Shown in pieces: positions 9,351 to 26,424 of a stretch of 64,000 nucleotides of DNA. How positions within the stretch are numbered: position 1 is the stretch's first letter; every line of letters begins with the position of its first letter. The notes under the pieces are model-generated. The model was given only the letters and a program-made list of their open reading frames with translations, was not told where the DNA came from and searched no databases. Origin of the DNA: Candidatus Gorgyraea atricola (GTDB taxonomy: Bacteria; Omnitrophota; Gorgyraeia; Gorgyraeales; Gorgyraeaceae); the NCBI GenBank assembly GCA_030765235.1, contig JAVCCW010000028.1, positions 24,744 through 88,743 on the forward strand, written 5' to 3'. Position numbers and translations under genes: made by a program.

Positions 9351-9365
9351 AAGAGGATTTTAGAG

Positions 9366-10701: not shown

Positions 10702-13700
10702 TTGTTTACTTCCCGCAAAATTTTATTATCTTTTTCATTACTAGCAGTATTTGTTTTTCTCGCCTGTGCCAGCCCTTCTGTAGCATATAGCATTCCTACT
10801 GCTGAAATTTCTTCAATCGAGTTTGACAGTCCTACTAGACATCTTGTTGTTAATGGTTCTGCCTATGGTTCAGATTTCAAGAGCTATAAAATAGAATATG
10901 GCACAGGTGAGTCACCTACATATTGGACGAGTCTTAAGGTTTCAGAAGACGAGGTTCCAGACGGTGTTTTGGCAACAGGCACAGTATTCTGTATCAAAGA
11001 AGGATATTATACAGTCAAGCTCACTGTAGAAGATACTAATGGAGATATTGCAGAAGATAGAGATAGATTTTATTACTCACCTTATTTTATTTTAAAGTGG
11101 AGTAAAAACAGTTGGTCTGTTTCAATGTTTTCTTTAATGATAGGTCTATTGACTGTAACTGACGATGAGGGCGAGACAGCTACAGCTCCACTGAAAATTC
11201 TTGTCAATGCTGTAGATGAGGATGAAGATGAGGAGGAAGACGAAGATAAAGATGATGTTAAGGGTGAGAAAAAGCCAATAAAAGATCTGCAGTATGTCCC
11301 AGGTGAGTTTATAGTAAAGTTTAAGCCTGAGGCGATTCAAAAGGCTGCATCTATAGATTCAGCAAAGCCTCTCTTCAAAAAGAAAAAAGGTAAGATGCCT
11401 GATACTTATATTCTTAAGATAGATCCGTCAGAGGATGTATTGGCTGCATGTAGCAGGTATAAGGCAAGGGATGATGTTGTATATGCTGAGCCAAATTATA
11501 TTTACACCATAGATGGTGAGCCAGATCCTATGCTCTCACAGCAGTGGTCTCATAAAAAGACACAGGCAGATCTTGGCTGGGATATTGAAACAGGCAACAA
11601 GGATATTGTAATAGCTATTATAGATACAGGTGTAGAGTATACTCACCCAGACCTAGCAGAAAACATCTGGACAAATGAAGGCGAAATCCCTAATAACGGA
11701 GAAGATGATGATAGGAATGGGTATGTAGATGATTACTATGGCTATGATTTTGCTAACCTTAATAATGACCCTAAAGATGAGAATAACCATGGCACGCACT
11801 GTGCAGGTATTGCGGGTGCAGTAGGGAATAATGGCATAGGCGTGGCAGGCGTGTGTCATTCTTGCTCAATAATGTCTTTAAGGGTAAGCTTAAAGCCCCC
11901 TAATGGCAATGTAGTGCGCACTATTTCACAAAGTGATCTTTTAGCGGAAGCACTTAAATATGCTGCTGATAATGGCGCTCGTATTATCTCTATAAGTCTC
12001 AGAGGAGCCAACTCTCAGACAGTAAAAGACGCGATAACATATGCCTATCAAAAGGGATGTGTGATTGTAGCAGGCGCAGGCAACGGAAATTCCAGTAATA
12101 AATGTTATCCTGCGGCATTTGACAATGTAATCGCAGTAGCTGCTACTAATTTTAAAGATCAAAAAACAGAGATTTCAAACTATGGCAGCTGGATAGATGT
12201 TGCAGCCCCAGGCGAGAATATTTTATCAACTGTTCGTTCAGGTTATGGATCTTCTTCAGGTACCTCAATGGCTGCTCCATACGTAGCAGGTCTAGCAGGA
12301 CTTATACTTTCAAAAGATAGTTCACTTAGCAATAGTGAAGTTAAAAAGGTGATAGTAAGTAGCGTAGATGGCTGTGATTCTGATAAATATATAGGTACAG
12401 GCAGGGTCAATGTCTATGAGGCATTAAAGGATGAAGATGTCCCTTGCACAACAGAGATAACCTCGCCAGAGCATGATGATATAATAATTGAAGATGTGGA
12501 AGTTATAGGTACTGCTACAGGGGATTACACGCTTTATTATGGAAAGGGCACATATCCCTCCAGGTGGGAAGAATTTGACTTAGGCGAGAGTACCACAGAG
12601 GATGTTTTAGGTACATGGAATATATCAAATTTAACTGAAGGGACATATTCAATTAGACTAGCAGTTGAGGATGATGGCTCAGTAGTATGCGAGGATAAGG
12701 TGGTTGTAGAGGTAAGGGTAAGGGTGAATGATCGCGTGATTTACGTTGATAATTCTGCTAGCGGTGCAAATGATGGTACGTCCTGGCAGGATGCATATAC
12801 AACGATTAGCGCTGCCTTTGATGACTTATACTATGAATCAGGCGTTACTATAAAGGTAGCACAGGGTAGCAGTGCTTATGAAGAGGATTTCACCAATATC
12901 ACTAATGGGACAGATTCAGGAGTAAAGGATAATCATAATTCCTTAGTAGCAAAAGATGAGCATGCCCCAATAATAGCTTCTACTTTTACACTCAAGGATG
13001 TCAAATACTTTAAGATAAAAGGATTCAAATTTATCAACGCAGGCCTTGATATTATAGACGCTTCAAATATAAAGGTGGTAAACAATACAATAGACTCCAA
13101 TAGAGATTTTGGTATCTATTTACTGGATAGTGCTAATAATACTGTAAAGAATACCATTGTTATAAATGGTGAGGACGCAGGTATATGCGCAGAAGGGATC
13201 TCCTCAGTCTCGTCTTCGTATAATAATCTCTGGAATAATGGTGTGAATTACAAAGGCTGTTCAAAAGGTGAAGGAGATATCTCTAGCGACCCATTATTCG
13301 TAGATCTTGCATCAGGTGATTATCATCTCAGGTCTGATTCTCTATGTATAGATGCAGGGGATCCTAACGATCCGCTTGATAGTGCGGGTTCGCGAGTGGA
13401 TATAGGATGTTATACAGGGTATACACATCCAAGGGATCTCAAGAAACCTGTACTAGATGATGCGCAGCCTAAAGGCGCAACTGGCCTTGAGGTATATGAA
13501 GGTCAGGAGGTATTATTTAAGGTATATTCTTTTGATCCTAAAGGAAGGGCTATTACTTATTCGCTTCCCTATTCTTCAGATCCTGGCTTTATAGAAAATT
13601 CACAAGAAGAGCCAAAGAGTGGTATTTACACATGGCAGACAGATTATAATGATGCTGATGATGGCGGCGAGTACTATGTAACCATTAGGGCTACTGCAGA

Positions 13701-16700
13701 TGATGGCCGTTATGCAGAGGATATATTCAAGATAGTCGTAAATAATTTTGATCCAGAGAGGGAGCGCGTAATTTATGTTGATAATTCTGCTACTGGTGCA
13801 AATGATGGCACCTCATGGGAAAATGCATATACAACGATCACTGCAGCATTGAATGACTTGCACTATGAATCAGGTGTTACTATAAAAATTGCCAAAGGTA
13901 ATGGAGCTTATAAGGAGGATTTCAGCAGTGCCATAGATGATTCAGATTCTGGCACATATGAACAGCCAAATTATTTAGTAGCTAAACAAGGAGGCATGCC
14001 AACAATCGTTTCTTTAGTTGATGGCTTTAGCATTGATAATGCTAGATACATTACTATAGATGGATTGGGATTTATGGCTATTCCAGGTCATACAGGTTTG
14101 CCTGAAGTTGTAAGCATTAATGATTCTTCCAGGATTATATTTAAAAATAATGCAGTCGAGGCATTTGCAATAGATCTTAATGGTCTGGTTCTGGAGAATT
14201 GTTCAGATATAAGAGTAGAAGATAATAAGATGCTTGCGCTAGAAACCTCAATTTTGGCAAAAGATATTAAGAATAGCTTTATCAAGAGTAATCGTATAGA
14301 TTGCAGCAAGATTGGAATTTCTCTTGAGGGAGGTCTTGGTAATTCAGTCAATTATAACTTAGTTGTAAACAGTAGTAATGAAGGCATATCTATATCTTAT
14401 GGCGGCTTTTGTTCTATAGTAAATAACACCATAGACTCTTCAAGCTCTCCTTCTAGCCGTGATGGGATTATAGCCCGCGGCACGCTTAAGACCATTGTAA
14501 AAAATAACATAATAACCAATAATCAAGGAGCGGGAATAAGATTAGACGATGGCGCATCAATTAGATCTTCATATAACAATGTCTGGAATAATGGTGCGGA
14601 CTATAAGGGTTGTTCGCCAGGTACGGGAGCCATCTCTAGTGATCCATTGTTTGTTAATGTTTCGTCAAGGGATTATCATCTTCAGCCTAATTCTCCGTGT
14701 ATAGATGCAGGAGATCCTAATGACCCTCTTGATAGTGAACTTTCCAGAATAGATATAGGGTGTCACACAGGATATAGAGCTACAATAGTAAACCATGATC
14801 CTCAAGTCACAATAACTTCAATTTCTCCAAACCCAGCTTTGGTAGGCCAGCCTGTTAAGTTTAAGGCAGCAATAAGCGACCCTGATGGAGCTGGCGACTT
14901 GTTATACGACACATGGGACTATGGGAATGGTATAACTTCAATGTCGCAAGGAGGTTGTTCAGGAATCGGGGCAATGACCTATTTAAAGTCCGGGGATTAC
15001 ACAGTGACAGTCAAGGTGTATGATAAATCTGGTGGTACAGCAGAAGCCACAGATACTATAACTGTAAATACACCTCCTACGCGGCCGCCTGAGATTGAAT
15101 CCATACCTGATCAGGAGATGAGCGAGGGTGAAGAGCTTACAGTTAACATTAATACACTAGATATTCCTGACTACGAATTGTATGCTATGCATGTTGAAAA
15201 ACTGCCAGAATTTGCAGATGATATTATTTTAGATTATCATAATGGACCTAGGATAGTTACTGCTATTGTATTCAGGCCTGGCTTTGAGGACAGCGGCATA
15301 TACCCTGACATAACAGTAGTCTTGTCTATGGGAAAGTATCGCATAGAGGAGAAGTTTACATTAAAGGTACAAAACACTAACCGTAAGCCCAGAGTCACAA
15401 TAACCTCTATCTCTCCAAATCCAGCCTTGGTAGGCGAACTTGTTGAGTTTACAGCCCAGATAAGCGATCCAGACGGAGATAGTGACTTACTATGCGACGC
15501 ATGGGATTATGGAAATGACATAGCTTCAATGACGCAAGGGGGATGTAATGGGTCCGGAAGAATGACCTATTTAAAATCAGGAGACTACACAGTAACAGTG
15601 ACTGTGCGTGATAAATCTGGTGCTGCAGCAACAGATTCAGCAGTAGTTACTGTAAATAAAAGGCCTGACCGAGAACCCTCTAAGCCCATCCTCAAGAACG
15701 ATATAGCTAGTCTAACTGTAAATGAAGGAGAGAAGATGCAATTTAGACTCGCTTCAGCTGACCCGGACGGAGACAAAATAACCTACATAAAGGTAGAAGG
15801 ACCAGGCTCAATAGATGGCCTTACAGGTGTATTCACCTGGCAGACCGTCTATGCTGACAGCGGTACATACCCTCTAAGAGTGAAGGCCACATCCACCAGC
15901 CTGGAATCAGCGGAGGCAGAGTTTACTCTCACTGTCGAAAATACTAACCGTCCACCTGCTGCTGAAATCACTTTTGTTTCTGCAAGGAAGATTACTGTAG
16001 GAGAATCTGTTAACTTCGAGGCTAAGATCTATGATCCTGATGGTGACTCTGATATAAGCTATGTTATATGGAGATTCGGAGATGGTAAATCTTCAACAGG
16101 AGGCCTAAGTCAAAAAGACATTGCACATCGCTTTGATAAGCCAGGCAGTTATGAGGTAACTGTAGAAGTAGTTGATAAACAAGGTGTATCTGTAAAGGCC
16201 GGCGGTGTTACCATAACGGTAGAGGAACGGCTGCCCATAATTGGCGACGTGGATTCTGATGGTAAGGTACTGATGTATGATGCTTCTTTGGTTGCTCAGT
16301 ATGTTGAGGGTCTGATCAATTTTAACCCTACACAGATATACGCTGCTGATGTAACTCGCAATGGCCAGGTAACACACCTGGATGCTAATTTTATTGCAAT
16401 GTATGTAGTGGGAAAGATAGCTAAATTACCCGTAGAAAACCATGCCCCTATCTTTGCACAAATAGGCAATAAGACCGTCTTAAAAGGCTCTACCCTTAAC
16501 TTCACCATCGAAGCAACTGACCCTGATGGAAATAATCTCACTTACTCACTCAAGAATCCGCCAGATGGTGCAGCCTTAAAGGGTAATACCTTCTCATGGA
16601 CACCTGCTAGTACCCAGAAAGTCACCTTTGAAGTCACTGACGGTGAACTCTCTAGCTCGAAGACCATCATCATAACTGTACAAGATAAAAAACAGCCTCC

Positions 16701-16713
16701 TGCAATTGACTAA
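10702..16713 (+). CDS. giant secreted multidomain subtilisin-like (S8) serine protease with beta-helix, PKD/Ig-like and dockerin modules (2003 aa)
   Basis: TTG start with RBS. The signal peptide MFTSRKILLSFSLLAVFVFLACAS may be a lipobox. An acidic DEDEDEEEDEDKDD linker follows. An I9-like propeptide precedes the S8 catalytic triad (IAIIDTGV, NHGTHCAG, GTSMAAPYVAG). Two roughly 340-aa right-handed beta-helix modules are present (VIYVDNSA[ST]GANDGTSW...NNT repeats...DPLFV..DYHL..CIDAGDPNDPLDS). Three PKD-like domains carry DPDGD motifs. The dockerin repeats are GDVDSDGKV...DVTRNGQV. Ig-like domains lie at the C-terminus. Confidence 0.8.
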   Translation: MFTSRKILLSFSLLAVFVFLACASPSVAYSIPTAEISSIEFDSPTRHLVVNGSAYGSDFKSYKIEYGTGESPTYWTSLKVSEDEVPDGVLATGTVFCIKEGYYTVKLTVEDTNGDIAEDRDRFYYSPYFILKWSKNSWSVSMFSLMIGLLTVTDDEGETATAPLKILVNAVDEDEDEEEDEDKDDVKGEKKPIKDLQYVPGEFIVKFKPEAIQKAASIDSAKPLFKKKKGKMPDTYILKIDPSEDVLAACSRYKARDDVVYAEPNYIYTIDGEPDPMLSQQWSHKKTQADLGWDIETGNKDIVIAIIDTGVEYTHPDLAENIWTNEGEIPNNGEDDDRNGYVDDYYGYDFANLNNDPKDENNHGTHCAGIAGAVGNNGIGVAGVCHSCSIMSLRVSLKPPNGNVVRTISQSDLLAEALKYAADNGARIISISLRGANSQTVKDAITYAYQKGCVIVAGAGNGNSSNKCYPAAFDNVIAVAATNFKDQKTEISNYGSWIDVAAPGENILSTVRSGYGSSSGTSMAAPYVAGLAGLILSKDSSLSNSEVKKVIVSSVDGCDSDKYIGTGRVNVYEALKDEDVPCTTEITSPEHDDIIIEDVEVIGTATGDYTLYYGKGTYPSRWEEFDLGESTTEDVLGTWNISNLTEGTYSIRLAVEDDGSVVCEDKVVVEVRVRVNDRVIYVDNSASGANDGTSWQDAYTTISAAFDDLYYESGVTIKVAQGSSAYEEDFTNITNGTDSGVKDNHNSLVAKDEHAPIIASTFTLKDVKYFKIKGFKFINAGLDIIDASNIKVVNNTIDSNRDFGIYLLDSANNTVKNTIVINGEDAGICAEGISSVSSSYNNLWNNGVNYKGCSKGEGDISSDPLFVDLASGDYHLRSDSLCIDAGDPNDPLDSAGSRVDIGCYTGYTHPRDLKKPVLDDAQPKGATGLEVYEGQEVLFKVYSFDPKGRAITYSLPYSSDPGFIENSQEEPKSGIYTWQTDYNDADDGGEYYVTIRATADDGRYAEDIFKIVVNNFDPERERVIYVDNSATGANDGTSWENAYTTITAALNDLHYESGVTIKIAKGNGAYKEDFSSAIDDSDSGTYEQPNYLVAKQGGMPTIVSLVDGFSIDNARYITIDGLGFMAIPGHTGLPEVVSINDSSRIIFKNNAVEAFAIDLNGLVLENCSDIRVEDNKMLALETSILAKDIKNSFIKSNRIDCSKIGISLEGGLGNSVNYNLVVNSSNEGISISYGGFCSIVNNTIDSSSSPSSRDGIIARGTLKTIVKNNIITNNQGAGIRLDDGASIRSSYNNVWNNGADYKGCSPGTGAISSDPLFVNVSSRDYHLQPNSPCIDAGDPNDPLDSELSRIDIGCHTGYRATIVNHDPQVTITSISPNPALVGQPVKFKAAISDPDGAGDLLYDTWDYGNGITSMSQGGCSGIGAMTYLKSGDYTVTVKVYDKSGGTAEATDTITVNTPPTRPPEIESIPDQEMSEGEELTVNINTLDIPDYELYAMHVEKLPEFADDIILDYHNGPRIVTAIVFRPGFEDSGIYPDITVVLSMGKYRIEEKFTLKVQNTNRKPRVTITSISPNPALVGELVEFTAQISDPDGDSDLLCDAWDYGNDIASMTQGGCNGSGRMTYLKSGDYTVTVTVRDKSGAAATDSAVVTVNKRPDREPSKPILKNDIASLTVNEGEKMQFRLASADPDGDKITYIKVEGPGSIDGLTGVFTWQTVYADSGTYPLRVKATSTSLESAEAEFTLTVENTNRPPAAEITFVSARKITVGESVNFEAKIYDPDGDSDISYVIWRFGDGKSSTGGLSQKDIAHRFDKPGSYEVTVEVVDKQGVSVKAGGVTITVEERLPIIGDVDSDGKVLMYDASLVAQYVEGLINFNPTQIYAADVTRNGQVTHLDANFIAMYVVGKIAKLPVENHAPIFAQIGNKTVLKGSTLNFTIEATDPDGNNLTYSLKNPPDGAALKGNTFSWTPASTQKVTFEVTDGELSSSKTIIITVQDKKQPPAID
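12736..14775 (+). repeat. internal tandem duplication of an about 1-kb beta-helix module within the giant gene
   Basis: gtgatttacgttgataattctgctagcggtgcaaatgatggtacg at 12736 matches gtaatttatgttgataattctgctactggtgcaaatgatggcacc at 13768. Both modules end with ...CIDAGDPNDPLDS..R[IV]DIGC[YH]TGY. Confidence 0.75.
14803..15658 (+). repeat. two roughly 80%-identical PKD-domain repeats (14803-15070 and 15391-15658) within the giant gene
   Basis: [QR]VTITSISPNPALVG...ISDPDG..DLL[YC]D.WDYGN.I.SM[ST]QGGC.G.G.MTYLKSGDYTVTV.V.DKSG repeated. Confidence 0.75.
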
Positions 16714-18215: not shown

Positions 18216-19916
18216 ATGCTGATTAAAAAAACTATACTCTTAGGTGAAAGGCTTATCCAGAAAGGCCTGATTTCTCGTCGGGAACTAGATAAGGGTTTGA
18301 AGGAGCACGAGAAAACAGGCCTTTTTCTTGGGACTACTCTGGTAAGGCTTGGTTTTATCAGTGAAGAAGAACTGTATCCTATTCTTGCCGAGCAGTTGAA
18401 GATGGAGTATGTTAAGATAAAAGAACTTACTATTGATTCCGTGATTTTTGAAAAAGTCCCTGCCAGATATGCCTGCCATTACAGGCTCATGCCAGTAAAA
18501 TTTGATAAAGACATTTTGAGTGTTGCGGTCTCAGATCCTCTGGATATTAGGTCACTGGATGACCTGAGACTTCTTCTGGGTTGTGATGTGATCGGGTTAT
18601 TGGCAACTGAGTCAGACATAACCGAGGCCATCAGGAAATATTATGGCATTGGCGCAGAGACCATAGAAGAGATAGTGGATACGGGCGATATGGCCAAAGA
18701 TATAGAGCTGTCAGCAAAGACAACAGAGGATATAGAGGATCTTGCAGAGGACGCGTCGATTATAAAATTTGTAAATCAGGTCCTGGTGCAGGCAGTTAAA
18801 GACAGGGTCACGGATATTCATATTGAGCCGTATGAGGATGAGCTTAAGGTACGATACAGGGTGGATGGTGTTTTGTACGATATCCCAATCCCGCAGAATA
18901 TAAAATATTTTCAGGCTGCTATTGTTTCCAGGATAAAAATTATGGCGAGCCTGGATATTGCTGAGCGCAGGCTCCCGCAGGATGGGAGGATAAAGATCAA
19001 GGTAGGAGGGGAAGAACTGGATCTAAGGATATCCATACTTCCCACGCAGTTTGGAGAAAGCGTTGATATCAGGCTTTTAAGCGGCACAATGCTGTATAGC
19101 CTGAAGAATCTTGGACTTTCTTCTTCTGATCAAAAGATCATGGAAGTCCTTATCAAAAAGCCGCACGGGATCATATTTGTAACAGGACCTACAGGCAGCG
19201 GAAAGACTACTACGCTTTACGCGTGTTTATCCAAGATAAACAACAAAGACAAAAAGATCATTACCATAGAAGACCCCATAGAATATCAATTAAAGGGCGT
19301 GACGCAGATCCAGATCCACCCTCGCATTGGGCTTAGTTTCGCAGCAGGTCTGCGCTCAATGCTTCGTCATGACCCAGATATCATGATGGTGGGCGAGGTA
19401 AGGGATTTTGAAACAGCAGAGATAACTATTCGCGTTGCATTGACAGGGCATCTCGTGTTCAGTACTTTGCATACAAATGATGCTGCAGGAGGCATGGCGC
19501 GTTTGTTGGATATGGGTGTGGAGCCATATCTTGCTGCGAGTTCTGTTGAATGTTTTGCTGCGCAGCGCCTTGTAAGGCTGATCTGTCCGAAGTGTAAGAT
19601 TGAGAAAAGACCTGATAAAAAGGTCTTGAAGGAATTTGGAATAAAAGAGAAAAATATAAGTAAGGTAATTATTTTTGAGGGAAAAGGATGTGAGTCATGC
19701 AAGTTTACAGGCTACAGGGGCCGCACAGGCATATATGAGTTTTTACTTATGCATGAAGAGATCCGAGAACTAGTTCTTCACCGCTCATCAGCTGACCAGA
19801 TAAAGAAAAAGGCATTGGAGTTAGGCATGCACACGCTCCGCATGGATGGATGGGAAAAAGTGAAAAAGGGCCTGACAACGATAGACGAGGTGATCAGGGT
19901 TACAAAGGAAGACTAA
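18216..19916 (+). CDS. gspE: type II secretion/type IV pilus assembly ATPase (GspE/PilB family)
   Basis: 566 aa. N-terminal T2SSE_N domain with two MshEN-like motifs (LGERLIQKGLISRRELDKGL and LGTTLVRLGFISEEELYPILAEQL). Walker A VTGPTGSGKTTTLYA, and a C-terminal tetracysteine CPKC...CESC. Confidence 0.85.
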   Translation: MLIKKTILLGERLIQKGLISRRELDKGLKEHEKTGLFLGTTLVRLGFISEEELYPILAEQLKMEYVKIKELTIDSVIFEKVPARYACHYRLMPVKFDKDILSVAVSDPLDIRSLDDLRLLLGCDVIGLLATESDITEAIRKYYGIGAETIEEIVDTGDMAKDIELSAKTTEDIEDLAEDASIIKFVNQVLVQAVKDRVTDIHIEPYEDELKVRYRVDGVLYDIPIPQNIKYFQAAIVSRIKIMASLDIAERRLPQDGRIKIKVGGEELDLRISILPTQFGESVDIRLLSGTMLYSLKNLGLSSSDQKIMEVLIKKPHGIIFVTGPTGSGKTTTLYACLSKINNKDKKIITIEDPIEYQLKGVTQIQIHPRIGLSFAAGLRSMLRHDPDIMMVGEVRDFETAEITIRVALTGHLVFSTLHTNDAAGGMARLLDMGVEPYLAASSVECFAAQRLVRLICPKCKIEKRPDKKVLKEFGIKEKNISKVIIFEGKGCESCKFTGYRGRTGIYEFLLMHEEIRELVLHRSSADQIKKKALELGMHTLRMDGWEKVKKGLTTIDEVIRVTKED

Positions 19917-21101
19917 ATGCCTAAATTTATTTACAAAGCGAAAAAAGGGCCGAAAGAGATTATAGAGGGAAAGATCGAGGCTGAATCAGAGGCCCAGGCT
20001 GTAAAGCAGCTCATGCAGCAGGGCTATTATCCTATATGGGTTAAAGAGACCTCGACCTTAGCCTCACAAAAAAGAAGACCTGTAAAAACAAAGGACCTTG
20101 CGATTTTTACAAGGCAGCTCTCAGAGCTCTTGGATTCAGGCCTGGCCCTGTACGAGGCATTAAATATAATTGAAAATCAAATAGAGCTGCCGGGGTTAAA
20201 AGAGATCATAAGAGGTATTAGGGAAAAGGTAAGGGATGGCAATACCTTTTCTGAATCTTTGAAAGACTACCCAGGTGTTTTTTCAGAATTATATGTAAAT
20301 CTGGTTCGCTCAGGTGAGGCAGGGAGCATGCTTAGGGACGTGCTCAATAATATCGCGGATTTTCTGGAAAAAGAAGAGGATGTAAAGTCCAGGGTATTGG
20401 CTGCACTGGCATATCCAATGCTGATGCTGATCGTAGGTGCTGGTACAATATTTATTCTAACAGGATTTGTTATTCCAAAATTGGCCAATATGTTTATTGA
20501 GATGGGCGAGGTCTTACCTCTTCCCACAAGGATGCTTATTGGATTTAGTGATTTTATAAGGAGTTACTGGATATTATTAGCCATTTTTATAGGTGGCGCG
20601 ATATTTTTTGTTGCAAGGAGTAAATCCAAGGGGGCTATAGACAGGTTCAAATTAAAATTGCCTATTATTGGAGCGCTAGTAAGGGATAGTGAGCTTGCTA
20701 GATTCTCACGCACGCTTTCAATGCTTCTTAAAAATGGCGTGGCGATTCTTTCTGCATTAAAGATTACCTCTGATGTAATCGAAAATGAGGTTGTAAAAGC
20801 CGAGGCGCTTAGGATCTATAATGATGTTAGAGAAGGTTCATCGCTTGCAGCTGCGATAAAAAAGAATACCAGCTTTCCCCAGTTTATCGTAAATATGGCA
20901 ACGATAGGAGAAGAGGGTGGGATGCTGGATAAGACCTTACTTAAGGCTGCAAAGAGTTACGAGCTCGAGAGCGACAGAAAGATCAAGATACTCTCATCTC
21001 TTTTAGAGCCAGCTATAATATTGATCATGGGTGTGGTAGTAGGTTTTATCGTAATATCAATGCTTTTGCCAGTATTTCAGATATCGTTGACTGCACATTG
21101 A
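19917..21101 (+). CDS. gspF: type II secretion inner-membrane platform protein (GspF/PilC family)
   Basis: 394 aa. Duplicated T2SSF domains and three TM segments. The start codon abuts the gspE stop. Confidence 0.85.
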   Translation: MPKFIYKAKKGPKEIIEGKIEAESEAQAVKQLMQQGYYPIWVKETSTLASQKRRPVKTKDLAIFTRQLSELLDSGLALYEALNIIENQIELPGLKEIIRGIREKVRDGNTFSESLKDYPGVFSELYVNLVRSGEAGSMLRDVLNNIADFLEKEEDVKSRVLAALAYPMLMLIVGAGTIFILTGFVIPKLANMFIEMGEVLPLPTRMLIGFSDFIRSYWILLAIFIGGAIFFVARSKSKGAIDRFKLKLPIIGALVRDSELARFSRTLSMLLKNGVAILSALKITSDVIENEVVKAEALRIYNDVREGSSLAAAIKKNTSFPQFIVNMATIGEEGGMLDKTLLKAAKSYELESDRKIKILSSLLEPAIILIMGVVVGFIVISMLLPVFQISLTAH

Positions 21102-21102
21102 C

Positions 21103-21134
21103 AAATCGCGGAACTTCCGCGTAGTTCAGCGATT
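21103..21134. repeat. minimal copy of the aatcgcggaac...gttcagcgatt palindromic element, directly after the gspF stop
   Basis: aaatcgcggaacttccgcgtagttcagcgatt. The termini are shared with the element at 62511-62628, and the left terminus with 5761-5848. Confidence 0.65.
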
Positions 21135-21150
21135 ACTATAGGAGGTAATT

Positions 21151-21549
21151 ATGAGTAGTCAAAAAGGTTTTACATTGATAGAACTGATGCTTGTCGTAAT
21201 AATCATAGGGGTGCTTGCGTCATTAGTAGTGCCCAGGCTTGTGGGCCGTTCAGAAGAGGCAAGGATTGCCGCTGCAAAGGCAGATATAAATGCCAATATT
21301 TCAGTGGCGCTTGATCTATATGAGCTGGACAATGGAAAATACCCGTCTGACCTGAATGCCTTAAAGGCAAAATCAGGCTCGGACGCAAACTGGAAAGGCC
21401 CATATCTTAAAAGAAGCGTAAAAGATCCATGGGGAAATTCTTATGTATACAGAAGCCCAGGGGATCATGACACTGATTACGATCTTTATTCTTATGGCCC
21501 TGACGCTGCAGAGGGCGGAGGCGATGATATTACGAACTGGGAAGAATAA
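21151..21549 (+). CDS. gspG: type II secretion major pseudopilin GspG
   Basis: 132 aa. Prepilin leader MSSQKG|FTLIELMLVVIIIGVLASLVVPRL. The GspG-specific motif DPWGNSYVY is present. Confidence 0.85.
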   Translation: MSSQKGFTLIELMLVVIIIGVLASLVVPRLVGRSEEARIAAAKADINANISVALDLYELDNGKYPSDLNALKAKSGSDANWKGPYLKRSVKDPWGNSYVYRSPGDHDTDYDLYSYGPDAAEGGGDDITNWEE

Positions 21550-21784
21550 AAAAGGGATTTTATTGCTGGAAGTATTAGTCAGCACTACGATTCTTTCAGT
21601 TTGTTTTATATTTATAATAAGTTCTTTTACGAGATCTATAAGGGCGATAGACCTCTCAGGGGATTATTTCAGGCTAGGCCTGGTTCTTGAGCAGGAATTA
21701 TACGAGGCCCTTGATTGCGAATTAAAACAAGGTCTTCCGGATTTTGACAAAATTTATGAAGAAAAAAGGGTTTACCCTGATTGA
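21524..21784 (+). CDS. minor pseudopilin (GspH/GspI-like)
   Basis: Start chosen at MILRTGKNKKG|ILLLEVLVSTTIL, a prepilin-like leader plus hydrophobic helix. Overlaps the gspG 3' end by 26 nt. The ORF track's upstream extension is rejected. Confidence 0.5.
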   Translation: MILRTGKNKKGILLLEVLVSTTILSVCFIFIISSFTRSIRAIDLSGDYFRLGLVLEQELYEALDCELKQGLPDFDKIYEEKRVYPD

Positions 21785-22325
21785 GCTTATAATTAGTGTA
21801 ACAATATTTAGCATAGTAATCGTTTCAGTTTATGGCGTGTTTTATATGGGTTTAAAGACATGGAGGCGCGCTCAAGGAGAAAAATCCCTGCAAGAGATAC
21901 GCATGGCATTTTTAAAGATGGAAAAGGAACTGAAAAATACATTCTTCTTTTCTGACACCAAATTTAAAGGCACGTCAAAAGACATGTCTTTTCCTTTAGT
22001 TGTCTCAGATAAAGTTTATACAATTACCTATAGCGTGAACGAAAATGAAGATAGCGGACTAAGTCAAATTCTGAGAACAAAAGACGAAGAAGAAAAAGAG
22101 ATATCGCCTCCAATGAAGTCTATTAAATTTCAATATGCTGCTATGGCCGAAGATATCGAATGGAAGGATAATTGGAATGAAGATGACCTTCCTTCTGGCA
22201 TAAGGATTTCTTTAGAGGATGAGGAGACTTGCCCCGTGCCTTTTGCAGATAGAGCAAAAAGCAAAAGGCATGGGGTTTACAGCAAGACCATTTTTCTTAA
22301 ACAGCCGGATTTTAAGATACAATGA
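21756..22325 (+). CDS. minor pseudopilin (GspJ-like)
   Basis: MKKKG|FTLIELIISVTIFSIVIVSVYGVF prepilin N-terminus. An in-frame TTG at 21744 is an alternative start. About 190 aa, consistent with GspJ. Confidence 0.55.
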   Translation: MKKKGFTLIELIISVTIFSIVIVSVYGVFYMGLKTWRRAQGEKSLQEIRMAFLKMEKELKNTFFFSDTKFKGTSKDMSFPLVVSDKVYTITYSVNENEDSGLSQILRTKDEEEKEISPPMKSIKFQYAAMAEDIEWKDNWNEDDLPSGIRISLEDEETCPVPFADRAKSKRHGVYSKTIFLKQPDFKIQ

Positions 22326-23110
22326 AGAAAAAAGGAAGCATCTTGATATTTACATTGTGGGTGTTAATTATTTTAGCCATCCTTAGTGTGATTATTTCTC
22401 GTCGGGCATCTACTGATGTAAGGCTGGCAAAATACGAGGCTGATAGCATAAAAGGCACTTATTTTGCAAAGGCAGGTGTCATGAAGATGCTTGTAGAACT
22501 TACTAAAGATAAAAATGGGTACGACAGCTTAGATGAGGACTGGAATAGAGGTAAGGATAATCCAAAGGAATTGACATTGAAAAATGATACAGTACTCTAT
22601 GGCGCATCTGATGAAGCAGCCAGATTAAATCTGAATCATTGCACAATAGATAACCTTAAGAACCTGGGACTTGAAGATGATATTGCTAATAATATATTAA
22701 AGTATAGGACGGATCATAATAAGGACTTTGAGTTTATGGAAGAGTTGTTTCTGGTAGAGGCTATGACGCGAGAGGTGTATAATACAATTAAGGATCTAGT
22801 TACGATTTATAGAGGAGATGAGGTCAAGGTAAACATAAATACTGCATCTTCAGATGTACTGATGGCAGTTGTGGGCGATCCAGTTTTAGTACAGGCGATA
22901 GTAGATTATAGAAATAACGATGATATGTTTACAAATACTAGTGATATCAGCATGATACAAGGATTGGATCCAGCTATGTTTAACTGGGAGTCTAATATCT
23001 TTCGCATATGGGCAGAGGCTGTTCTGGCAGATGATACTGATGCAACAAAAACTGCTGAAGCTATAGTCGATAGGACATCAGGAAAGATCTATCATTGGAG
23101 GGAAGATTGA
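22322..23110 (+). CDS. gspK: GspK-like minor pseudopilin
   Basis: 262 aa. MKKKGSILIFTLWVLIILAILSV N-terminal TM helix without the processing Gly/Phe, as in GspK. Gene order is G-H/I-J-K. Confidence 0.6.
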   Translation: MKKKGSILIFTLWVLIILAILSVIISRRASTDVRLAKYEADSIKGTYFAKAGVMKMLVELTKDKNGYDSLDEDWNRGKDNPKELTLKNDTVLYGASDEAARLNLNHCTIDNLKNLGLEDDIANNILKYRTDHNKDFEFMEELFLVEAMTREVYNTIKDLVTIYRGDEVKVNINTASSDVLMAVVGDPVLVQAIVDYRNNDDMFTNTSDISMIQGLDPAMFNWESNIFRIWAEAVLADDTDATKTAEAIVDRTSGKIYHWRED

Positions 23111-24225
23111 TAATCATACCGCGGCATCAAGTCTTTGTTAAGTTCGTGGACGTACCATCTCTAGACGAATCTGAGATAGCGAAGATGGCAGAATTTCAGA
23201 TCGTGAAGGAGATCCCGCATCCAAAAGAAGATTTGATAATCAGCTATAGAAATCTTGACTCCCATAGAGAAGGTTTCTCATCACTCATGCTAACAGTTGT
23301 TACCAGAGATGTGATAGAGGAAAAGATTGACGAGGCTGCTCATGTAGATAGCATAAGACTATATAGTGAGCTATTATATCTATTCCTGTTAAAAGAGAAT
23401 GTGGTAAGCCAGGATAAGGTAAGTCTTATTATTCATGTTAGAGAAGAAGACTCAGAGATAATGATAATAGATCGCTCACGGCTGATATTTTCCAGAGGTT
23501 TTAAGGATAGGCACGCATTTTTAGGTGAGATAGAGCGTTCAATTTTAGCCTATAAAAGAGAAAAGGCAAATCCTGAGATAGAAGATATAATTATAGTACG
23601 CCATTCAGGTGTGAATATCGACGATAAAATAGAAAAGATAAAGGCACAGTTTACGATTCCTGTAAGGTTTCATGAATATAGCCAGGATTTGAGTCTGCTT
23701 GATCTGGGGCCTCAGATCGACCTTATGCCAAAGGAGATCAGTCATAAAAGACGTGGTTTAGTAAAGAGGCGCGAGTCCATAGTTACATATTCTCTTGTAG
23801 GAGTGGTTATTGTATTATTTTCTATTTTACTTTATTCAAAGATTCACCAGAAAAATAAAATTATAGGCGCGATTTCTACAAAGGTAGAAGAAGTGGACGC
23901 AAGGATAGAAGGTTTGGACGAGATCCTTAAAAAGACCGAGGCTGTAAAGGATCATTTAGAAAAGGGTAGTTTTATTATAAAGGTTTTAGAGGATTTTTAT
24001 CTAACAGTCCCCCAAGATATATCAATTTCAGGCTTAGATTATGATGGAAAGGATAATATTTTCTATAAAGGCAATTCAAAGGCCATGGCTACTCTCCTAA
24101 ATTACGTAAAAAGACTGGAGAATTCCAAGTATTTCAGCAAGGTGGAAGTTAAATATGCTACAAAGAAAAAGGTAAAGGGAGAAGAGATAGTAGATTTTAA
24201 TCTAAGGTGTCAATTAAAGCCATGA
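23095..24225 (+). CDS. GspL-like (cytoplasmic actin-like domain + TM + periplasmic domain) assembly protein
   Basis: 376 aa. A single central TM helix (VTYSLVGVVIVLFSILLYSKI) separates an about 240-aa N-terminal domain from an about 115-aa C-terminal domain, the GspL/PilM-PilN topology. The TTG start is uncertain. Confidence 0.5.
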   Translation: MEGRLIIIPRHQVFVKFVDVPSLDESEIAKMAEFQIVKEIPHPKEDLIISYRNLDSHREGFSSLMLTVVTRDVIEEKIDEAAHVDSIRLYSELLYLFLLKENVVSQDKVSLIIHVREEDSEIMIIDRSRLIFSRGFKDRHAFLGEIERSILAYKREKANPEIEDIIIVRHSGVNIDDKIEKIKAQFTIPVRFHEYSQDLSLLDLGPQIDLMPKEISHKRRGLVKRRESIVTYSLVGVVIVLFSILLYSKIHQKNKIIGAISTKVEEVDARIEGLDEILKKTEAVKDHLEKGSFIIKVLEDFYLTVPQDISISGLDYDGKDNIFYKGNSKAMATLLNYVKRLENSKYFSKVEVKYATKKKVKGEEIVDFNLRCQLKP

Positions 24226-24722
24226 ATATTTCCAAGCGAGAAAAATATATATCTATTATTGCTACTGGAGTTGTCGTATTGGCGCTGGCGTATAATTTTT
24301 TAATAGATCCACTTTTCAAAAAATGGCATAATTTTAATAATGATATAATAAAAAATGAAATTGCCTTAAAGAAAGGCTTGAAATTGCTGGAGAATAGAAA
24401 TGATATTATCAAAGAGTATAATAGCTATGCATCCACTACCAGGACGCTTTCAAGGATTTTGAGTTACATAGAAAAACATGCCATTTCAACAGGTGTAAAA
24501 ACAGCCAATATAAAGCCAAGGCCAGTTGTTGAAAAAGGCTATTATAAGGAATATGTCATTGAGCTGCAGGTAGAAGGCACATTTTCCGCTATCAACAAGT
24601 TCGCATCTAAGATCATAGAACCCCCTTTGCTAATCACCATAAAAAAATTCGACCTAAGAACCCCCACAGACACTCCATCCACCCTAAAAGGTACCCTAAT
24701 TCTCTCCAAACCCCTAATTTAA
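24222..24722 (+). CDS. GspM/PilO-like bitopic membrane protein
   Basis: ATGA overlap with the gspL-like stop. N-terminal TM helix ISIIATGVVVLALAYNFLI, then a periplasmic domain. Assigned from its position after gspL. Confidence 0.45.
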   Translation: MNISKREKYISIIATGVVVLALAYNFLIDPLFKKWHNFNNDIIKNEIALKKGLKLLENRNDIIKEYNSYASTTRTLSRILSYIEKHAISTGVKTANIKPRPVVEKGYYKEYVIELQVEGTFSAINKFASKIIEPPLLITIKKFDLRTPTDTPSTLKGTLILSKPLI

Positions 24723-24778
24723 CTTTACACTTAACCAAGGCTTAAGTGTAAAGTAGGCCAGGTTTAAACCTGGCCTAC
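24722..24778. repeat. two adjacent perfect palindromes after gspM: actttacacttaa-ccaaggc-ttaagtgtaaagt and gtaggccaggtttaaacctggcctac
   Basis: The second is the 26-nt core of the 8207-8246 palindrome. Confidence 0.75.
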
Positions 24779-24798
24779 AGAGAAGTTAGGAGTTGACC

Positions 24799-24872
24799 TT
24801 GACAATAAGGAAATCGTGGGGCATACTTACTCTCTATATGGAGAGTGAACTCTCACTCTCTACTTGGAGAGC
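24799..24872 (+). promoter_or_regulatory. candidate promoter (TTGACA-17-CATACT) plus two tandem CTCTC-N6-GAGAG inverted-repeat boxes upstream of the MerR-like gene
   Basis: ttgaca at 24799-24804. Box 1 is tctctatatggagag, and box 2 is tctctacttggagag, 10 nt further. Both precede the ATG at 24874. Confidence 0.4.
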
Positions 24873-24873
24873 T

Positions 24874-25110
24874 ATGAATAAGATATATTTGATTAAAGAT
24901 CTGGCAAGGCTAAGTGGACACACAGTGCACACTGTGAAGTATTACCTTAATATAGGTGTCATAAAGGAGATTGGCAGGAGTCCAGAGACTAACTTTAGAT
25001 ACTTTGATGATGTAGTGCTTGAGAGATTGAAAAAGGTGAGGGATTTGCGCAGACAGAATAAAGGCCTTGCAGAGATAAAGGAGTTACTCGGGTCAGATGT
25101 CGTATTATAA
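24874..25110 (+). CDS. small MerR-family HTH transcriptional regulator embedded in the T2SS locus
   Basis: 78 aa. IKDLARLSGHTVHTVKYYLNIGVI...FRYFDDVVLERLKKVRDLRRQNKGLAEIKELL has the MerR HTH and coiled-coil pattern. There is no effector domain. Confidence 0.6.
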   Translation: MNKIYLIKDLARLSGHTVHTVKYYLNIGVIKEIGRSPETNFRYFDDVVLERLKKVRDLRRQNKGLAEIKELLGSDVVL

Positions 25111-25924: not shown

Positions 25925-26409
25925 TGGCTGGTATGACTTCAGAAGGGAAACTTCTTAATCTCATAAAAGATGCGCAGAAAAAACGTAAGCTCAGGAAGGA
26001 TTTAAAGGTGTTTACGAAAATAAACATTGTCTTGATCGTTCTTATATTGGTTATACTTATTGTGTTTTTAGTGGATTTTCTCACCCCTGACCAAGAGAGG
26101 TCTAAGCTCATGGTAGAGCTGCCAAAGGAAGATGGAGCAGTTTTGCCTCTAGTAGAGGACGTGGATATAGAGGAAGAGATAGTGATTGAAGAAAAATCTC
26201 TTGCCTCAAAAGAGGAATTAGTAAAGGACTTGGCTGTGCTGGGCATCATCACAGGTGATAGCGACCAGGTTATAATAGAAGACAAGAGTGCAGGAAAGAC
26301 CTTTTTTCTTTACAAAGACGATAGTTTCGGAGATTTTAAGATTATCGAAATAAAAGATAATGGCGTGACCTTAGATTATAAAGGTGAAAAAATAGAATTG
26401 AATATGTAA
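25924..26409 (+). CDS. bitopic membrane protein, GspB/GspC-like partner of GspA
   Basis: 161 aa. Basic cytoplasmic N-terminus, then a TM helix (INIVLIVLILVILIVFLV), an acidic periplasmic linker and a small beta-rich C-domain. TAATG overlap with gspA. Homology is not firmly established. Confidence 0.4.
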   Translation: MAGMTSEGKLLNLIKDAQKKRKLRKDLKVFTKINIVLIVLILVILIVFLVDFLTPDQERSKLMVELPKEDGAVLPLVEDVDIEEEIVIEEKSLASKEELVKDLAVLGIITGDSDQVIIEDKSAGKTFFLYKDDSFGDFKIIEIKDNGVTLDYKGEKIELNM

Positions 26410-26424
26410 AAGGGGAGGTTTCCG

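What the first reader, a model, noticed from the sequence alone, without database searches (positions are those of the whole stretch)
16231..16431. Dockerin-like double calcium-binding loop in a Gram-negative secreted protease
LPIIGDVDSDGKVLMYDASLVAQYVEGLINFNPTQIYAADVTRNGQVTHLDANFIAMYVVGKIAKLP contains two DxDxDG-type loops, each followed by an amphipathic helix. That is the dockerin type-I duplicated F-hand. Dockerins imply a cohesin-bearing scaffold or surface anchor, so the giant protease may be tethered to the cell surface or to a multi-enzyme complex. Cellulosome-style architecture is established in Clostridia but rarely discussed in LPS-bearing bacteria.
Basis: partly seen in the sequence, partly recalled or inferred. 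Interest (0 to 1): 0.55.

Follow-up and report, generated by a model that had tools for sequence, protein, structure and literature searches.

The report
Dockerin module in Omnitrophota secreted protease
A 2,003-residue secreted serine protease from an uncultured Antarctic-lake bacterium (Candidatus Gorgyraea atricola, phylum Omnitrophota) really does carry a calcium-binding "dockerin" attachment module, but such modules outside cellulosomes, including in this phylum, are already documented and no binding partner could be found.

Summary
Window 16231-16431 (+) encodes residues 1844-1910 of a 2,003-aa ORF (10702-16713). This stretch matches Pfam Dockerin_1 above the curated cut-off (37.8 bits in the whole protein, 43.6 bits alone, against 22.9; profile positions 2-56 of 57). 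It matches solved cohesin-binding dockerins by sequence (E 4e-14 to 1e-10). It is predicted to adopt the dockerin fold (pLDDT 88; rmsd 1.2 Å to the A. cellulolyticus ScaB dockerin).

The host is a diderm, Candidatus Gorgyraea atricola (Omnitrophota). The gene lies just upstream of a type II secretion-like operon. The dockerin is the best-conserved domain between this protein and its closest full-architecture relative (81% identity). In that relative's contig, the same Dockerin + He_PIG C-terminal cassette also ends a different giant protein. This argues for a shared, selected attachment function.

There is no cohesin in the 64 kb window, and the rest of the source genome could not be reached.

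Novelty is low. The protein is already in NCBI with PF00404 precomputed. Non-cellulosomal dockerins in diderms and in Omnitrophota are published. I class it as a new member of a known kind.

The parts
10702..16713 (+). Gene for a 2,003-aa secreted multidomain S8 serine protease (TTG start). It is identical to the NCBI protein 'S8 family serine peptidase [Candidatus Gorgyraea atricola]'.
   Evidence: ORF list and translation. 100% match to P0001 on a 119,273-bp contig. Pfam architecture.
10702..10788 (+). Signal peptide (about aa 1-29, MFTSRKILLSFSLLAVFVFLACASPSVA|YS). Probably cleaved by signal peptidase I; not a lipobox.
   Evidence: Read directly from the sequence. Cys22 is Tyr in the closest relative P0002, so lipidation is not conserved.
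11260..11496 (+). Fervidolysin-like N-terminal prodomain (aa 187-265), preceded by an acidic linker starting at aa 172.
   Evidence: Pfam PF22148, 38.8 bits against a cut-off of 21. Linker position.
11599..12366 (+). Peptidase_S8 catalytic domain (aa 300-555) with triad D308, H363, S522.
   Evidence: Pfam PF00082, E 1.5e-52. Motifs IDTG, HGTH and GTSMA located.
12799..14766 (+). Two right-handed beta-helix regions (about aa 700-900 and 1016-1355; Beta_helix / NosD / Disaggr_assoc) separated by an Ig-like domain.
   Evidence: Pfam PF13229, PF05048, PF08480 and PF17161.
14779..16221 (+). Stalk of PKD and Ig-like domains (aa 1360-1840). It is poorly conserved (25% identity) against the closest relative.
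   Evidence: Pfam PKD / PKD_4, 4-5 stretches. Per-domain identity.
16231..16440 (+). Type-I dockerin module (aa 1844-1913; Pfam match aa 1848-1902).
   Evidence: PF00404, 37.8 / 43.6 bits against a cut-off of 22.9. PDB phmmer E 4e-14 (8x39_A) and 1e-10 (4uyq_B). AlphaFold2 pLDDT 88.1. Foldseek top 33 hits are all dockerins.
16246..16281 (+). Ca-binding loop 1 (D1849-D1860: DVDSDGKVLMYD).
   Evidence: Sequence. Column frequencies across 626 dockerin modules.
16348..16383 (+). Ca-binding loop 2 (D1883-D1894: DVTRNGQVTHLD).
   Evidence: Sequence. Column frequencies across 626 dockerin modules.
16444..16680 (+). C-terminal He_PIG / Big_9 Ig-like domain (aa 1915-1993). Together with the dockerin it forms a conserved C-terminal cassette.
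   Evidence: Pfam PF05345 / PF17963. Cassette alignment at 69-83% identity to three copies in locus L001. AlphaFold2 pLDDT 83-94 for this domain.
18216..28386 (+). Type II secretion-like operon, the likely export route. It holds GspE, GspF, GspG, minor pseudopilins, a GspK-like protein, PilN/PilO-like proteins, an AAA_22 ATPase and a secretin.
   Evidence: Pfam. The NCBIfam GspG equivalog passes (132.3 > 88.85). GspE scores 626.6 against 630.25.

Best explanation
The segment is a genuine type-I dockerin: two calcium-binding F-hand loops, each followed by a helix. It sits near the C-terminus of a Sec-exported S8 protease of the diderm Candidatus Gorgyraea atricola (Omnitrophota), between a PKD/Ig stalk and a final He_PIG Ig domain.

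Shown:
- Membership of the dockerin family, and the predicted fold.
- Intact catalytic and signal motifs.
- Position next to a T2SS-like operon.
- The Dockerin + He_PIG cassette is the best-conserved part of the protein. In a related organism it is shared by a second, unrelated giant exoprotein.

Inferred mechanism:
1. The preprotein crosses the inner membrane through Sec.
2. It is exported by the adjacent T2SS-like machine.
3. The prodomain is removed autocatalytically.
4. The calcium-loaded dockerin cassette attaches the enzyme non-covalently to a protein partner on the cell surface or in a surface assembly.

The partner would be a cohesin or a cohesin-like beta-sandwich encoded elsewhere in the genome. 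The attachment would keep the protease and its beta-helix domains at the cell surface, where this ultra-small and probably host-dependent bacterium meets its substrate or host.
For: Dockerin identity:
- Pfam PF00404 above the curated cut-off, nearly full length.
- phmmer against the PDB: E 4e-14 to the C. thermocellum Clo1313_0689 serine-protease double dockerin (8x39) and E 1e-10 to the A. cellulolyticus ScaB dockerin (4uyq), including the shared C-terminal GKI..LPVE motif.
- AlphaFold2 pLDDT 88, with 94-98 in the core.
- The top 33 Foldseek PDB hits are all dockerins. The best is 4uyp_B, TM 0.79/0.87, rmsd 1.2 Å, 45% identity.
- Asp at positions 1 and 12 of both loops.

Selection and a shared module:
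- Dockerin identity to the relative P0002 is 81%. That compares with 76% for the S8 domain and 25% for the PKD stalk. dN/dS is about 0.23.
- P0002 carries the cassette twice. Its neighbouring 2,172-aa CARDB/PKD protein ends with the same cassette, 78-84% identical.

Secretion context:
- Signal peptide.
- T2SS-like operon 1.5 kb downstream on the same strand.
- The literature reports conserved T2SS-like loci next to giant surface proteins in Omnitrophota (bioRxiv 10.1101/2023.11.21.568195).

Cohesins in related settings:
- Proteins with a He_PIG domain 40-54% identical to this one carry both Cohesin and Dockerin.
- One Omnitrophota MAG (Genome 58) is listed with both PF00404 and PF00963 in Seymour et al.'s source data.
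Against: - No cohesin was found in any ORF of the 64 kb window, in its six-frame translation, or in the relative's 13 kb contig.
- Among the 66 closest dockerin-bearing representatives, cohesin is not in any family shared by two or more of them. Most are poly-dockerin proteins without a cohesin.
- The papers on Omnitrophota dockerin proteins report no cohesin partner.
- Peer et al. 2009, as cited in those papers, is the source for non-cellulosomal dockerins. From my own recollection of that review, many such genomes have dockerins without detectable cohesins; I could not check this, because the review is not held.
- Loop 1 has Leu at position 9 (1% of modules). Loop 2 has Thr and Asn at positions 3 and 5. 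Calcium affinity is therefore untested.
- The dockerin is internal, followed by an Ig domain, rather than terminal.
- Export by the T2SS rests on adjacency only.
Confidence: 0.55

Rival explanations
1. Orphan dockerin acting as an adhesin or a structural bead. The module binds calcium and folds as a dockerin, but has no cohesin partner. It either stiffens and spaces the Ig/He_PIG stalk, or it binds a non-cohesin ligand such as a host or prey surface protein or glycan.
For: - No cohesin in the window or in the relative's contig.
- In P0002, dockerins alternate with He_PIG domains like beads on a string.
- The closest relatives world-wide are poly-dockerin proteins with 5-10 tandem dockerins and no cohesin.
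- Seymour et al. suggest that Omnitrophota non-cellulosomal dockerins 'may serve as adhesins' (PMC10066038).
- West-Roberts et al. propose attachment to a host or prey surface, and describe ladder-like dockerin/CBM repeats.
Against: - The module is most similar in sequence and fold to dockerins solved in complex with cohesins, at 45% identity.
- The same cassette on two otherwise unrelated exoproteins is the pattern expected for a common docking site.
- A pure spacer would not need to be the most conserved domain.
Confidence: 0.3
2. Full cellulosome-style complex. A multi-cohesin scaffoldin encoded elsewhere in the genome assembles this protease with several other dockerin-bearing enzymes into a multi-enzyme surface machine. 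This would resemble the system proposed for Cloacimonadota in the same lake.
For: - Ca. Stygibacter (Cloacimonadota, Ace Lake) has dockerin-bearing S8, C25, GH18 and GH57 enzymes plus a 3,755-aa scaffoldin-like protein with tandem cohesins (PMC8542988).
- At least two different exoproteins share this dockerin cassette in a relative.
- One Omnitrophota MAG is listed with PF00963.
Against: - The 64 kb window holds only one dockerin and no cohesin.
- The paper that produced this MAG looked for dockerin and cohesin domains and reported them only for Cloacimonadota.
- The genome is small (1.74 Mb).
- No carbohydrate-active catalytic domain or CBM was identified in the protein.
Confidence: 0.12
3. 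Chance resemblance. An Asp-rich linker happens to mimic EF-hand loops and has no dockerin fold or function.
For: Asp/Gly-rich loops are common in PKD- and cadherin-rich surface proteins. Loop 2 departs from the DxDxDG consensus.
Against: - Nearly full-length HMM match at E 3e-11.
- PDB sequence hits down to E 4e-14.
- A confident three-helix model that superposes on solved dockerins at 1.2 Å.
- 81% conservation with dN/dS of about 0.23.
Confidence: 0.02

Closest known systems
Type-I dockerins of clostridial cellulosomes (e.g. A. cellulolyticus ScaB dockerin, PDB 4UYP/4UYQ; C. thermocellum Xyn10B dockerin, 1OHZ/2CCL)
   Same: - About 65-70 residues, with two 12-residue calcium loops each followed by a helix and a short linker helix.
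- The GKI..LPVE C-terminal motif is shared.
- 45% identity and 1.2 Å rmsd to the ScaB dockerin.
   Different: - The host is a diderm Omnitrophota bacterium, not a Gram-positive clostridium.
- The module is internal, followed by a He_PIG Ig domain.
- Recognition positions 10-11 are Met-Tyr and His-Leu, different in the two repeats. I recall Ser-Thr being typical of C. thermocellum, but I did not verify that here.
- Leu at loop-1 position 9.
- No cohesin has been identified.
Double-dockerin module of the C. thermocellum serine protease Clo1313_0689 (PDB 8X39/8X3A)
   Same: The best sequence match in the PDB (E 4e-14). It is likewise a dockerin attached to a serine protease rather than to a glycoside hydrolase.
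   Different: That protein has two tandem dockerins and belongs to a bona fide cellulosome producer. Ours has a single dockerin, although the relative P0002 has two separated by a He_PIG domain.
Cellulosome-like system of Ca. Stygibacter (Cloacimonadota), Ace Lake (Williams et al. 2021, PMC8542988)
   Same: - Same lake, and a diderm host.
- A signal-peptide-bearing Peptidase S8 with a dockerin.
- Proposed surface tethering.
   Different: - There a 3,755-aa scaffoldin-like protein with tandem cohesins and a T9SS C-terminal domain was found.
- Here no cohesin is known, and the neighbouring secretion system is T2SS-like.
'Dockerin-type' giant proteins of Omnitrophota (West-Roberts et al. 2023 bioRxiv 10.1101/2023.11.21.568195; Seymour et al. 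2023 PMC10066038)
   Same: - Same phylum.
- PF00404 modules in large exoproteins.
- A T2SS-like locus next to the gene.
- A proposed role in attachment.
   Different: - Those proteins are at least 30,000 aa, with many dockerin and TSP3 repeats, transmembrane anchors and SecA-like domains.
- This one is 2,003 aa, with one dockerin, an active S8 domain, and no TM anchor or TSP3.
Non-cellulosomal cohesin/dockerin proteins (Peer et al. 2009), including the Coh-He_PIG-Doc secreted proteins found here (P0344, P0369 and others)
   Same: The He_PIG domain is 40-54% identical to ours, and dockerin modules sit directly next to He_PIG.
   Different: - Those are proteins of about 320 aa that carry their own cohesin.
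- Their dockerins belong to a different subtype without the LPVEN tail.
- Their taxon is unknown.
- They have no protease domain.

Membership tests
Dockerin type I (Pfam PF00404) | Scores above the curated gathering threshold over most of the profile | tested here: met
   37.8 bits in the whole protein and 43.6 bits alone, against a cut-off of 22.9; profile positions 2-56 of 57.
Dockerin type I (Pfam PF00404) | Two tandem 12-residue EF-hand-like loops (Asp at positions 1 and 12; Asp/Asn-type ligands at 3 and 5), each followed by an alpha-helix | tested here: met
   Loop 1 is D-x-D-x-D-G-x-x-x-x-x-D. Loop 2 is D-x-T-x-N-G-x-x-x-x-x-D. Helices fall at model residues 23-33 and 57-67. Thr at position 3 of loop 2 and Leu at position 9 of loop 1 are minority variants.
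Dockerin type I (Pfam PF00404) | Three-helix dockerin fold superposable on solved dockerins | tested here: met
   AlphaFold2 pLDDT 88.1, pTM 0.78. Foldseek against the PDB: ranks 1-33 are all dockerins, best rmsd 1.2 Å, TM 0.79/0.87. This rests on a predicted structure, not a solved one.
Dockerin type I (Pfam PF00404) | Calcium-dependent folding | not testable with these tools
   Needs CD, NMR or ITC with and without Ca2+/EDTA.
Dockerin type I (Pfam PF00404) | Binds a cognate cohesin | not testable with these tools
   No candidate partner is available. There is no cohesin in the window, and the rest of the genome could not be reached.
Cellulosome / cellulosome-like multi-enzyme complex | A cohesin-bearing scaffoldin or anchoring protein encoded in the genome | tested here: inconclusive
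   Absent from the 64 kb window and from L001. The other roughly 1.68 Mb of the MAG was not searchable. The published Pfam-per-genome table is cut off before this genome.
Cellulosome / cellulosome-like multi-enzyme complex | Several different enzymes carrying closely similar dockerins | tested here: inconclusive
   Only one dockerin in the window. In the related contig L001, two different giant proteins share the cassette at 78-84% identity.
Cellulosome / cellulosome-like multi-enzyme complex | Carbohydrate-active catalytic modules or CBMs among the docked subunits | tested here: not met
   No glycoside hydrolase or CBM family matched the protein. Only S8, beta-helix / NosD / Disaggr_assoc, PKD and He_PIG matched.
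Subtilase (Peptidase S8) | S8 domain with the Asp-His-Ser triad in the order D, H, S | tested here: met
   PF00082, E 1.5e-52. D308 (IDTG), H363 (HGTH) and S522 (GTSMA).
Omnitrophota 'Dockerin-type giant protein' (West-Roberts et al. 2023) | Giant size (>= 30,000 aa), with many dockerin and TSP3 repeats, a C-terminal TM anchor and SecA-like domains | tested here: not met
   2,003 aa with one dockerin. No TSP3, SecA or TM anchor appears among the Pfam hits.
Type II secretion substrate | Sec/Tat signal peptide plus dependence on a T2SS | tested here: inconclusive
   A signal peptide is present. A T2SS-like operon starts 1.5 kb downstream, and its GspG passes the NCBIfam cut-off. Dependence on that system cannot be tested in silico.

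The most novel reading that the evidence does not exclude
In Gorgyraeaceae-type Omnitrophota, a conserved Dockerin + He_PIG C-terminal cassette acts as a common surface-retention tag for T2SS-exported giant exoproteins (proteases, CARDB/PKD adhesins). It would dock either onto a partner that is not a Pfam-recognisable cohesin, or onto cohesin-bearing scaffolds of other organisms. An example of the second case would be cohesin-bearing bacteria in the same lake, used by an ultra-small episymbiont to latch onto its host. Either version would be a new way of using dockerins in diderm bacteria.
Probability: 0.1. Interest if true: 0.6.

Novelty: new member of a known kind. Interest (0 to 1): 0.27.

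Why it matters
Omnitrophota are ultra-small, uncultured and probably host-dependent or predatory bacteria. Their large surface proteins are thought to mediate attachment and digestion of other cells (PMC10066038; bioRxiv 10.1101/2023.11.21.568195).

A compact, enzymatically legible protein gives a more tractable handle than the 15,000-150,000-aa giants reported for this phylum. It has an active S8 protease, beta-helix domains, and a single well-conserved dockerin cassette. One can express an 80-residue module and fish for its partner.

If a partner exists, it would show how T2SS-exported enzymes are retained on a diderm surface in this phylum. As it stands, the finding adds one well-characterised example to an already documented phenomenon.

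Tried and rejected
1. Lipoprotein anchoring through 'VFLAC'. Rejected, because the Cys is Tyr in the closest relative P0002 while the SPase-I site (S-x-A|Y) is conserved.
2. The look-up of encoding contigs for the protease and for GspE, to walk along the 119 kb contig. Both are 'not on record'.
3. A dockerin-only search with the search for homologous proteins. No candidates passed the word filter, so the search was wasted.
4. A genome-contig scan with the C-terminal cassette. The source genome is not in that collection, and only distant He_PIG matches came back (L002-L006). A genome-wide cohesin search was therefore impossible.
5. A metagenome-contig scan with the cassette alignment. It returned 36 loci, all distant dockerins (28-51% identity), with no further copy of this cassette.
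6. AlphaFold2 on Dockerin + He_PIG with a 4-sequence alignment. He_PIG was confident, but the dockerin scored pLDDT 25-47, so nothing can be said about interdomain packing.
7. A literature look-up of PDB 8X39 found nothing relevant. The Peer et al. 2009 review is not held.
8. The published per-genome Pfam table (Seymour et al. source data) is cut off after genome 58 and part of genome 231. The PF00963 status of this MAG (genome 132) could not be read.
9. Cohesin co-occurrence among the 66 nearest dockerin proteins. Cohesin is not seen in any family with two or more members. Single-member families were only partly listed, so at most one of the 66 could carry a cohesin.
Full report
OBSERVATION. 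The opposite strand contains a stop codon. The segment is residues 1844-1910 of a 2,003-aa ORF at 10702-16713, with a TTG start.

Against Pfam-A the whole protein matches Dockerin_1 (PF00404) at residues 1848-1902. The match covers profile positions 2-56 of 57 and scores 37.8 bits (E 2.3e-9), against a curated cut-off of 22.9. An isolated 87-aa piece scores 43.6 bits (E 3.4e-11) and matches no other Pfam family at E <= 1.

ANATOMY OF THE MODULE.
- Loop 1 (D1849-V-D-S-D-G-K-V-L-M-Y-D1860) has Asp at positions 1, 3, 5 and 12.
- Loop 2 (D1883-V-T-R-N-G-Q-V-T-H-L-D1894) has Asp at positions 1 and 12, Thr at 3 and Asn at 5.
- Positions 1 and 12 are Asp in 97-99% of the modules.
- Minority variants are Thr at position 3 (5%), Asn at position 5 (13%) and Leu at position 9 of loop 1 (1%).
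- The module ends with G-K-I-A-K-L-P-V-E-N. Pro1910 is conserved in 97% of the modules, and position 1909 is Leu or Phe in 91%.

phmmer against all PDB sequences finds only dockerins. The best hits are the double-dockerin module of the C. thermocellum serine protease Clo1313_0689 (8x39/8x3a, E 4e-14) and the A. cellulolyticus ScaB dockerin (4uyq/4uyp, E 1e-10). The alignments include the same ...GKI..LPVE tail.

AlphaFold2 on a 10-sequence alignment gives mean pLDDT 88.1 and pTM 0.78, with 94-98 in the core. It predicts helices at model residues 23-33, 41-47 and 57-67. In the Foldseek search of the PDB, ranks 1-33 are all dockerins, most of them solved in complex with cohesins. The best is 4uyp_B, with TM 0.79/0.87, rmsd 1.2 Å and 45% identity. 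Generic EF-hand proteins appear only at E > 2. I conclude the module is a real type-I dockerin and not a chance Asp-rich linker.

THE PROTEIN. The Pfam architecture, with motif positions, is:
- signal peptide;
- an N-terminal Ig-like domain;
- an acidic linker starting at aa 172;
- a fervidolysin-like prodomain (aa 187-265);
- a Peptidase_S8 domain (aa 300-555, E 1.5e-52) with D308, H363 and S522;
- two right-handed beta-helix regions (Beta_helix / NosD / Disaggregatase-related);
- four or five PKD domains;
- the dockerin;
- a C-terminal He_PIG / Big_9 Ig domain (aa 1915-1993).
No cohesin, CBM or glycoside hydrolase family matched. The 'VFLAC' string in the signal peptide looks like a lipobox. 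However, the Cys is Tyr in the closest relative, so signal peptidase I cleavage after SVA is more likely.

ORGANISM AND CONTEXT. The protein is 100% identical to an NCBI entry, 'MAG: S8 family serine peptidase [Candidatus Gorgyraea atricola]', on a 119,273-bp contig. PF00404 is already among its precomputed Pfam domains. The taxon belongs to Candidatus Omnitrophota in the PVC group.

Seymour et al.'s tables identify the genome as MAG 3300035698_32 from Ace Lake, Antarctica. It is 98.2% complete, with 30 scaffolds, 1.74 Mb and an N50 of 119,273. It was first published by Williams et al. 2021.

The window layout is as follows.
- Upstream of the protease: pta/ack and a fatty-acid synthesis cluster.
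- Downstream on the same strand: an AAA_14/DUF4143 ATPase, then a T2SS-like operon. The operon holds GspE, GspF, GspG, minor pseudopilins, a GspK-like protein, PilN/PilO-like proteins, an AAA_22 ATPase and a secretin. GspG passes NCBIfam's equivalog cut-off (132.3 against 88.85), and GspE just misses (626.6 against 630.25).
- Further downstream: ETF, SMC and a large polysaccharide/LPS cluster. The cluster includes a GT9 heptosyltransferase, a GmhB-like phosphatase and a DUF2490 outer-membrane protein.
The 'Gram-negative / LPS-bearing' premise is therefore supported.

IS THE DOCKERIN UNDER SELECTION, AND IS IT SHARED? The closest full-architecture relative is P0002 (2,039 aa; ENA contig of 13 kb, locus L001). 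It carries the Dockerin + He_PIG unit twice (Dockerin_1 at 57.8 bits, two stretches). The gene immediately upstream of it encodes a different 2,172-aa CARDB/PKD/He_PIG protein (P0140). That protein ends with the same He_PIG-Dockerin-He_PIG cassette. The four cassette copies are 69-83% identical over 168 residues.

Per-domain identity between the window protein and P0002:
- dockerin 81% (the highest);
- S8 domain 76%;
- C-terminal He_PIG 75%;
- beta-helix 2 74%;
- PKD/Ig stalk 25%, meaning it has been replaced.
Nei-Gojobori dN/dS over the dockerin is about 0.23. The two copies inside P0002 are 98% identical at the DNA level, which points to a recent duplication. A module that is conserved better than the catalytic domain, and that is shared by unrelated exoproteins of one organism, is what one expects of a common docking or retention tag. 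This is inference, not proof.

THE MISSING PARTNER.
- I scanned every window ORF of at least 120 aa against Pfam. None matches Cohesin PF00963.
- The last homology search turned up a family of secreted proteins of about 320 aa with the layout signal peptide, Cohesin, He_PIG, Dockerin. Their He_PIG domain is 40-54% identical to ours. One such locus (L043) also holds a radical-SAM-He_PIG-Dockerin fusion and a second cohesin protein.
- A cohesin HMM built from 14 of these proteins finds nothing at E <= 10 in the six-frame translation of the window or of L001. It finds nothing at E <= 0.01 in any of the S8 or dockerin-bearing proteins collected.
- The window has only one dockerin in six frames.
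- The source genome could not be searched. It is not indexed for the look-up of encoding contigs and is absent from the genome-contig collection.
- A metagenome scan gave only distant dockerins.
- An exhaustive HMMER search of 1.84 billion representatives found 3,441 proteins at E <= 1e-3. The top hits are poly-dockerin proteins with 5-10 tandem modules. Among the top 66, cohesin is not in any family shared by two or more of them.
- The published source data list one Omnitrophota MAG with both PF00404 and PF00963. This is Genome 58, DG02-5-26, order B26-G9. The stored table is cut off before Genome 132.

WHAT IS ALREADY KNOWN.
- Seymour et al. [quoted passage not shown] 2009.
- West-Roberts et al. 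2023 define 'Dockerin-type giant proteins' in Omnitrophota. They report a conserved T2SS-like locus next to giant genes, and N-terminal S8 domains in some of them.
- A 2026 preprint counts PF00404 in 21 long Omnitrophota proteins and never mentions cohesin.
- Williams et al. 2021 produced this very MAG. They describe a cohesin scaffoldin plus dockerin-bearing enzymes, including a Peptidase S8, in Cloacimonadota of the same lake. They do not describe such a system for Omnitrophota.
The statement that such architecture is 'rarely discussed in LPS-bearing bacteria' is therefore outdated. This particular protein's dockerin has not been singled out in the papers I could read.

MECHANISM (best estimate).
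Shown:
- a signal peptide, an intact S8 triad and a prodomain;
- a bona fide dockerin;
- a conserved cassette shared with another exoprotein;
- an adjacent T2SS-like operon.
Inferred:
- Sec export, followed by T2SS-like secretion and autocatalytic removal of the prodomain;
- calcium-dependent docking of the Doc-He_PIG cassette to a surface partner (a cohesin or a cohesin-like beta-sandwich encoded elsewhere), which keeps the protease and its beta-helix domains on the cell surface.
I put about 0.55 on this reading, 0.30 on an orphan dockerin acting as an adhesin or a calcium-stiffened bead, 0.12 on a full multi-enzyme scaffoldin complex, and 0.02 on chance.

VERDICT. This is a new member of a known kind, the non-cellulosomal dockerin-bearing exoproteins of diderm bacteria, already noted in this phylum. 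Interest is modest (0.27). The useful residue is a tractable 80-residue bait for finding what dockerins bind in Omnitrophota.

Noticed in passing
window 18216-19916 (GspE) and 35532-36653 (-): The T2SS-like ATPase GspE carries an N-terminal MshE-type c-di-GMP-binding domain (NF053729, 57.8 bits against a cut-off of 38; Pfam MshEN). A GAF-GGDEF diguanylate cyclase lies about 16 kb downstream on the opposite strand. Secretion may be regulated by c-di-GMP.
   Followed up: partly
window 26425-28386: The secretin (Secretin, Secretin_N x2, STN, N0) ends with a TonB_C-like domain (aa 584-652, E 1.6e-5). This is an unusual fusion. By NCBIfam the protein is ambiguous between PilQ and GspD.
   Followed up: partly
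window 16980-18194: An AAA_14/DUF4143 ATPase gene sits between the protease and the T2SS-like operon. It has no NCBIfam match, and its role is unknown.
   Followed up: no
window 1-64000: Almost every gene is on the + strand, and GC skew is positive in every 4-kb bin (0.08-0.22). This is consistent with a long co-oriented stretch on the leading strand.
   Followed up: no
window 6953-10601: Two FabF-type ketoacyl synthase paralogues (6953-8191 and 9366-10601) flank fabG in the fatty-acid synthesis cluster directly upstream of the protease.
   Followed up: no
window 36768-61191: A large polysaccharide/LPS biosynthesis cluster. It includes a GT9 heptosyltransferase (41646-42725), two DegT aminotransferases, several GT2s, a B12-binding radical SAM enzyme (40124-41596), methyltransferases, a GmhB-like phosphatase (58673-59227) and a DUF2490 outer-membrane protein (52454-53101).
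   Followed up: partly
L001 171-12942: In the related contig, two adjacent giant genes (a 2,172-aa CARDB/PKD protein and a 2,039-aa S8 protease) end in the same He_PIG-Dockerin-He_PIG cassette. The protease carries it twice, and the two copies are 98% identical at the DNA level. Between the two orthologous proteases the PKD/Ig stalk has been swapped (25% identity) while both ends are conserved.
   Followed up: yes
L043 2104-6447 (GCA_964517985.1 CAZFCV010000001.1); proteins P0344-P0389: A family of secreted proteins of about 320 aa with the layout signal peptide, Cohesin, He_PIG, Dockerin. In L043 one of them lies between a B12-radical-SAM-He_PIG-Dockerin fusion (583 aa) and a second cohesin-containing protein (529 aa). 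This looks like a compact non-cellulosomal cohesin-dockerin system of unknown taxon and function.
   Followed up: partly
proteins P0121-P0139 (protein-representative hits): The nearest relatives of this dockerin world-wide are short proteins built almost entirely of tandem dockerins, for example P0121 at 762 aa with 10 Dockerin_1 stretches. Some also carry FG-GAP, Listeria-Bacteroides repeat or PG_binding_1 domains. None in the top 66 shares a cohesin family with another.
   Followed up: partly
source MAG 3300035698_32, scaffold Ga0374944_353219 (outside the window): Seymour et al.'s source data list a 15,222-aa giant ORF in the same genome. They also list a different Omnitrophota MAG (Genome 58, DG02-5-26, a Tibetan hot spring) with both PF00404 and PF00963.
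   Followed up: partly
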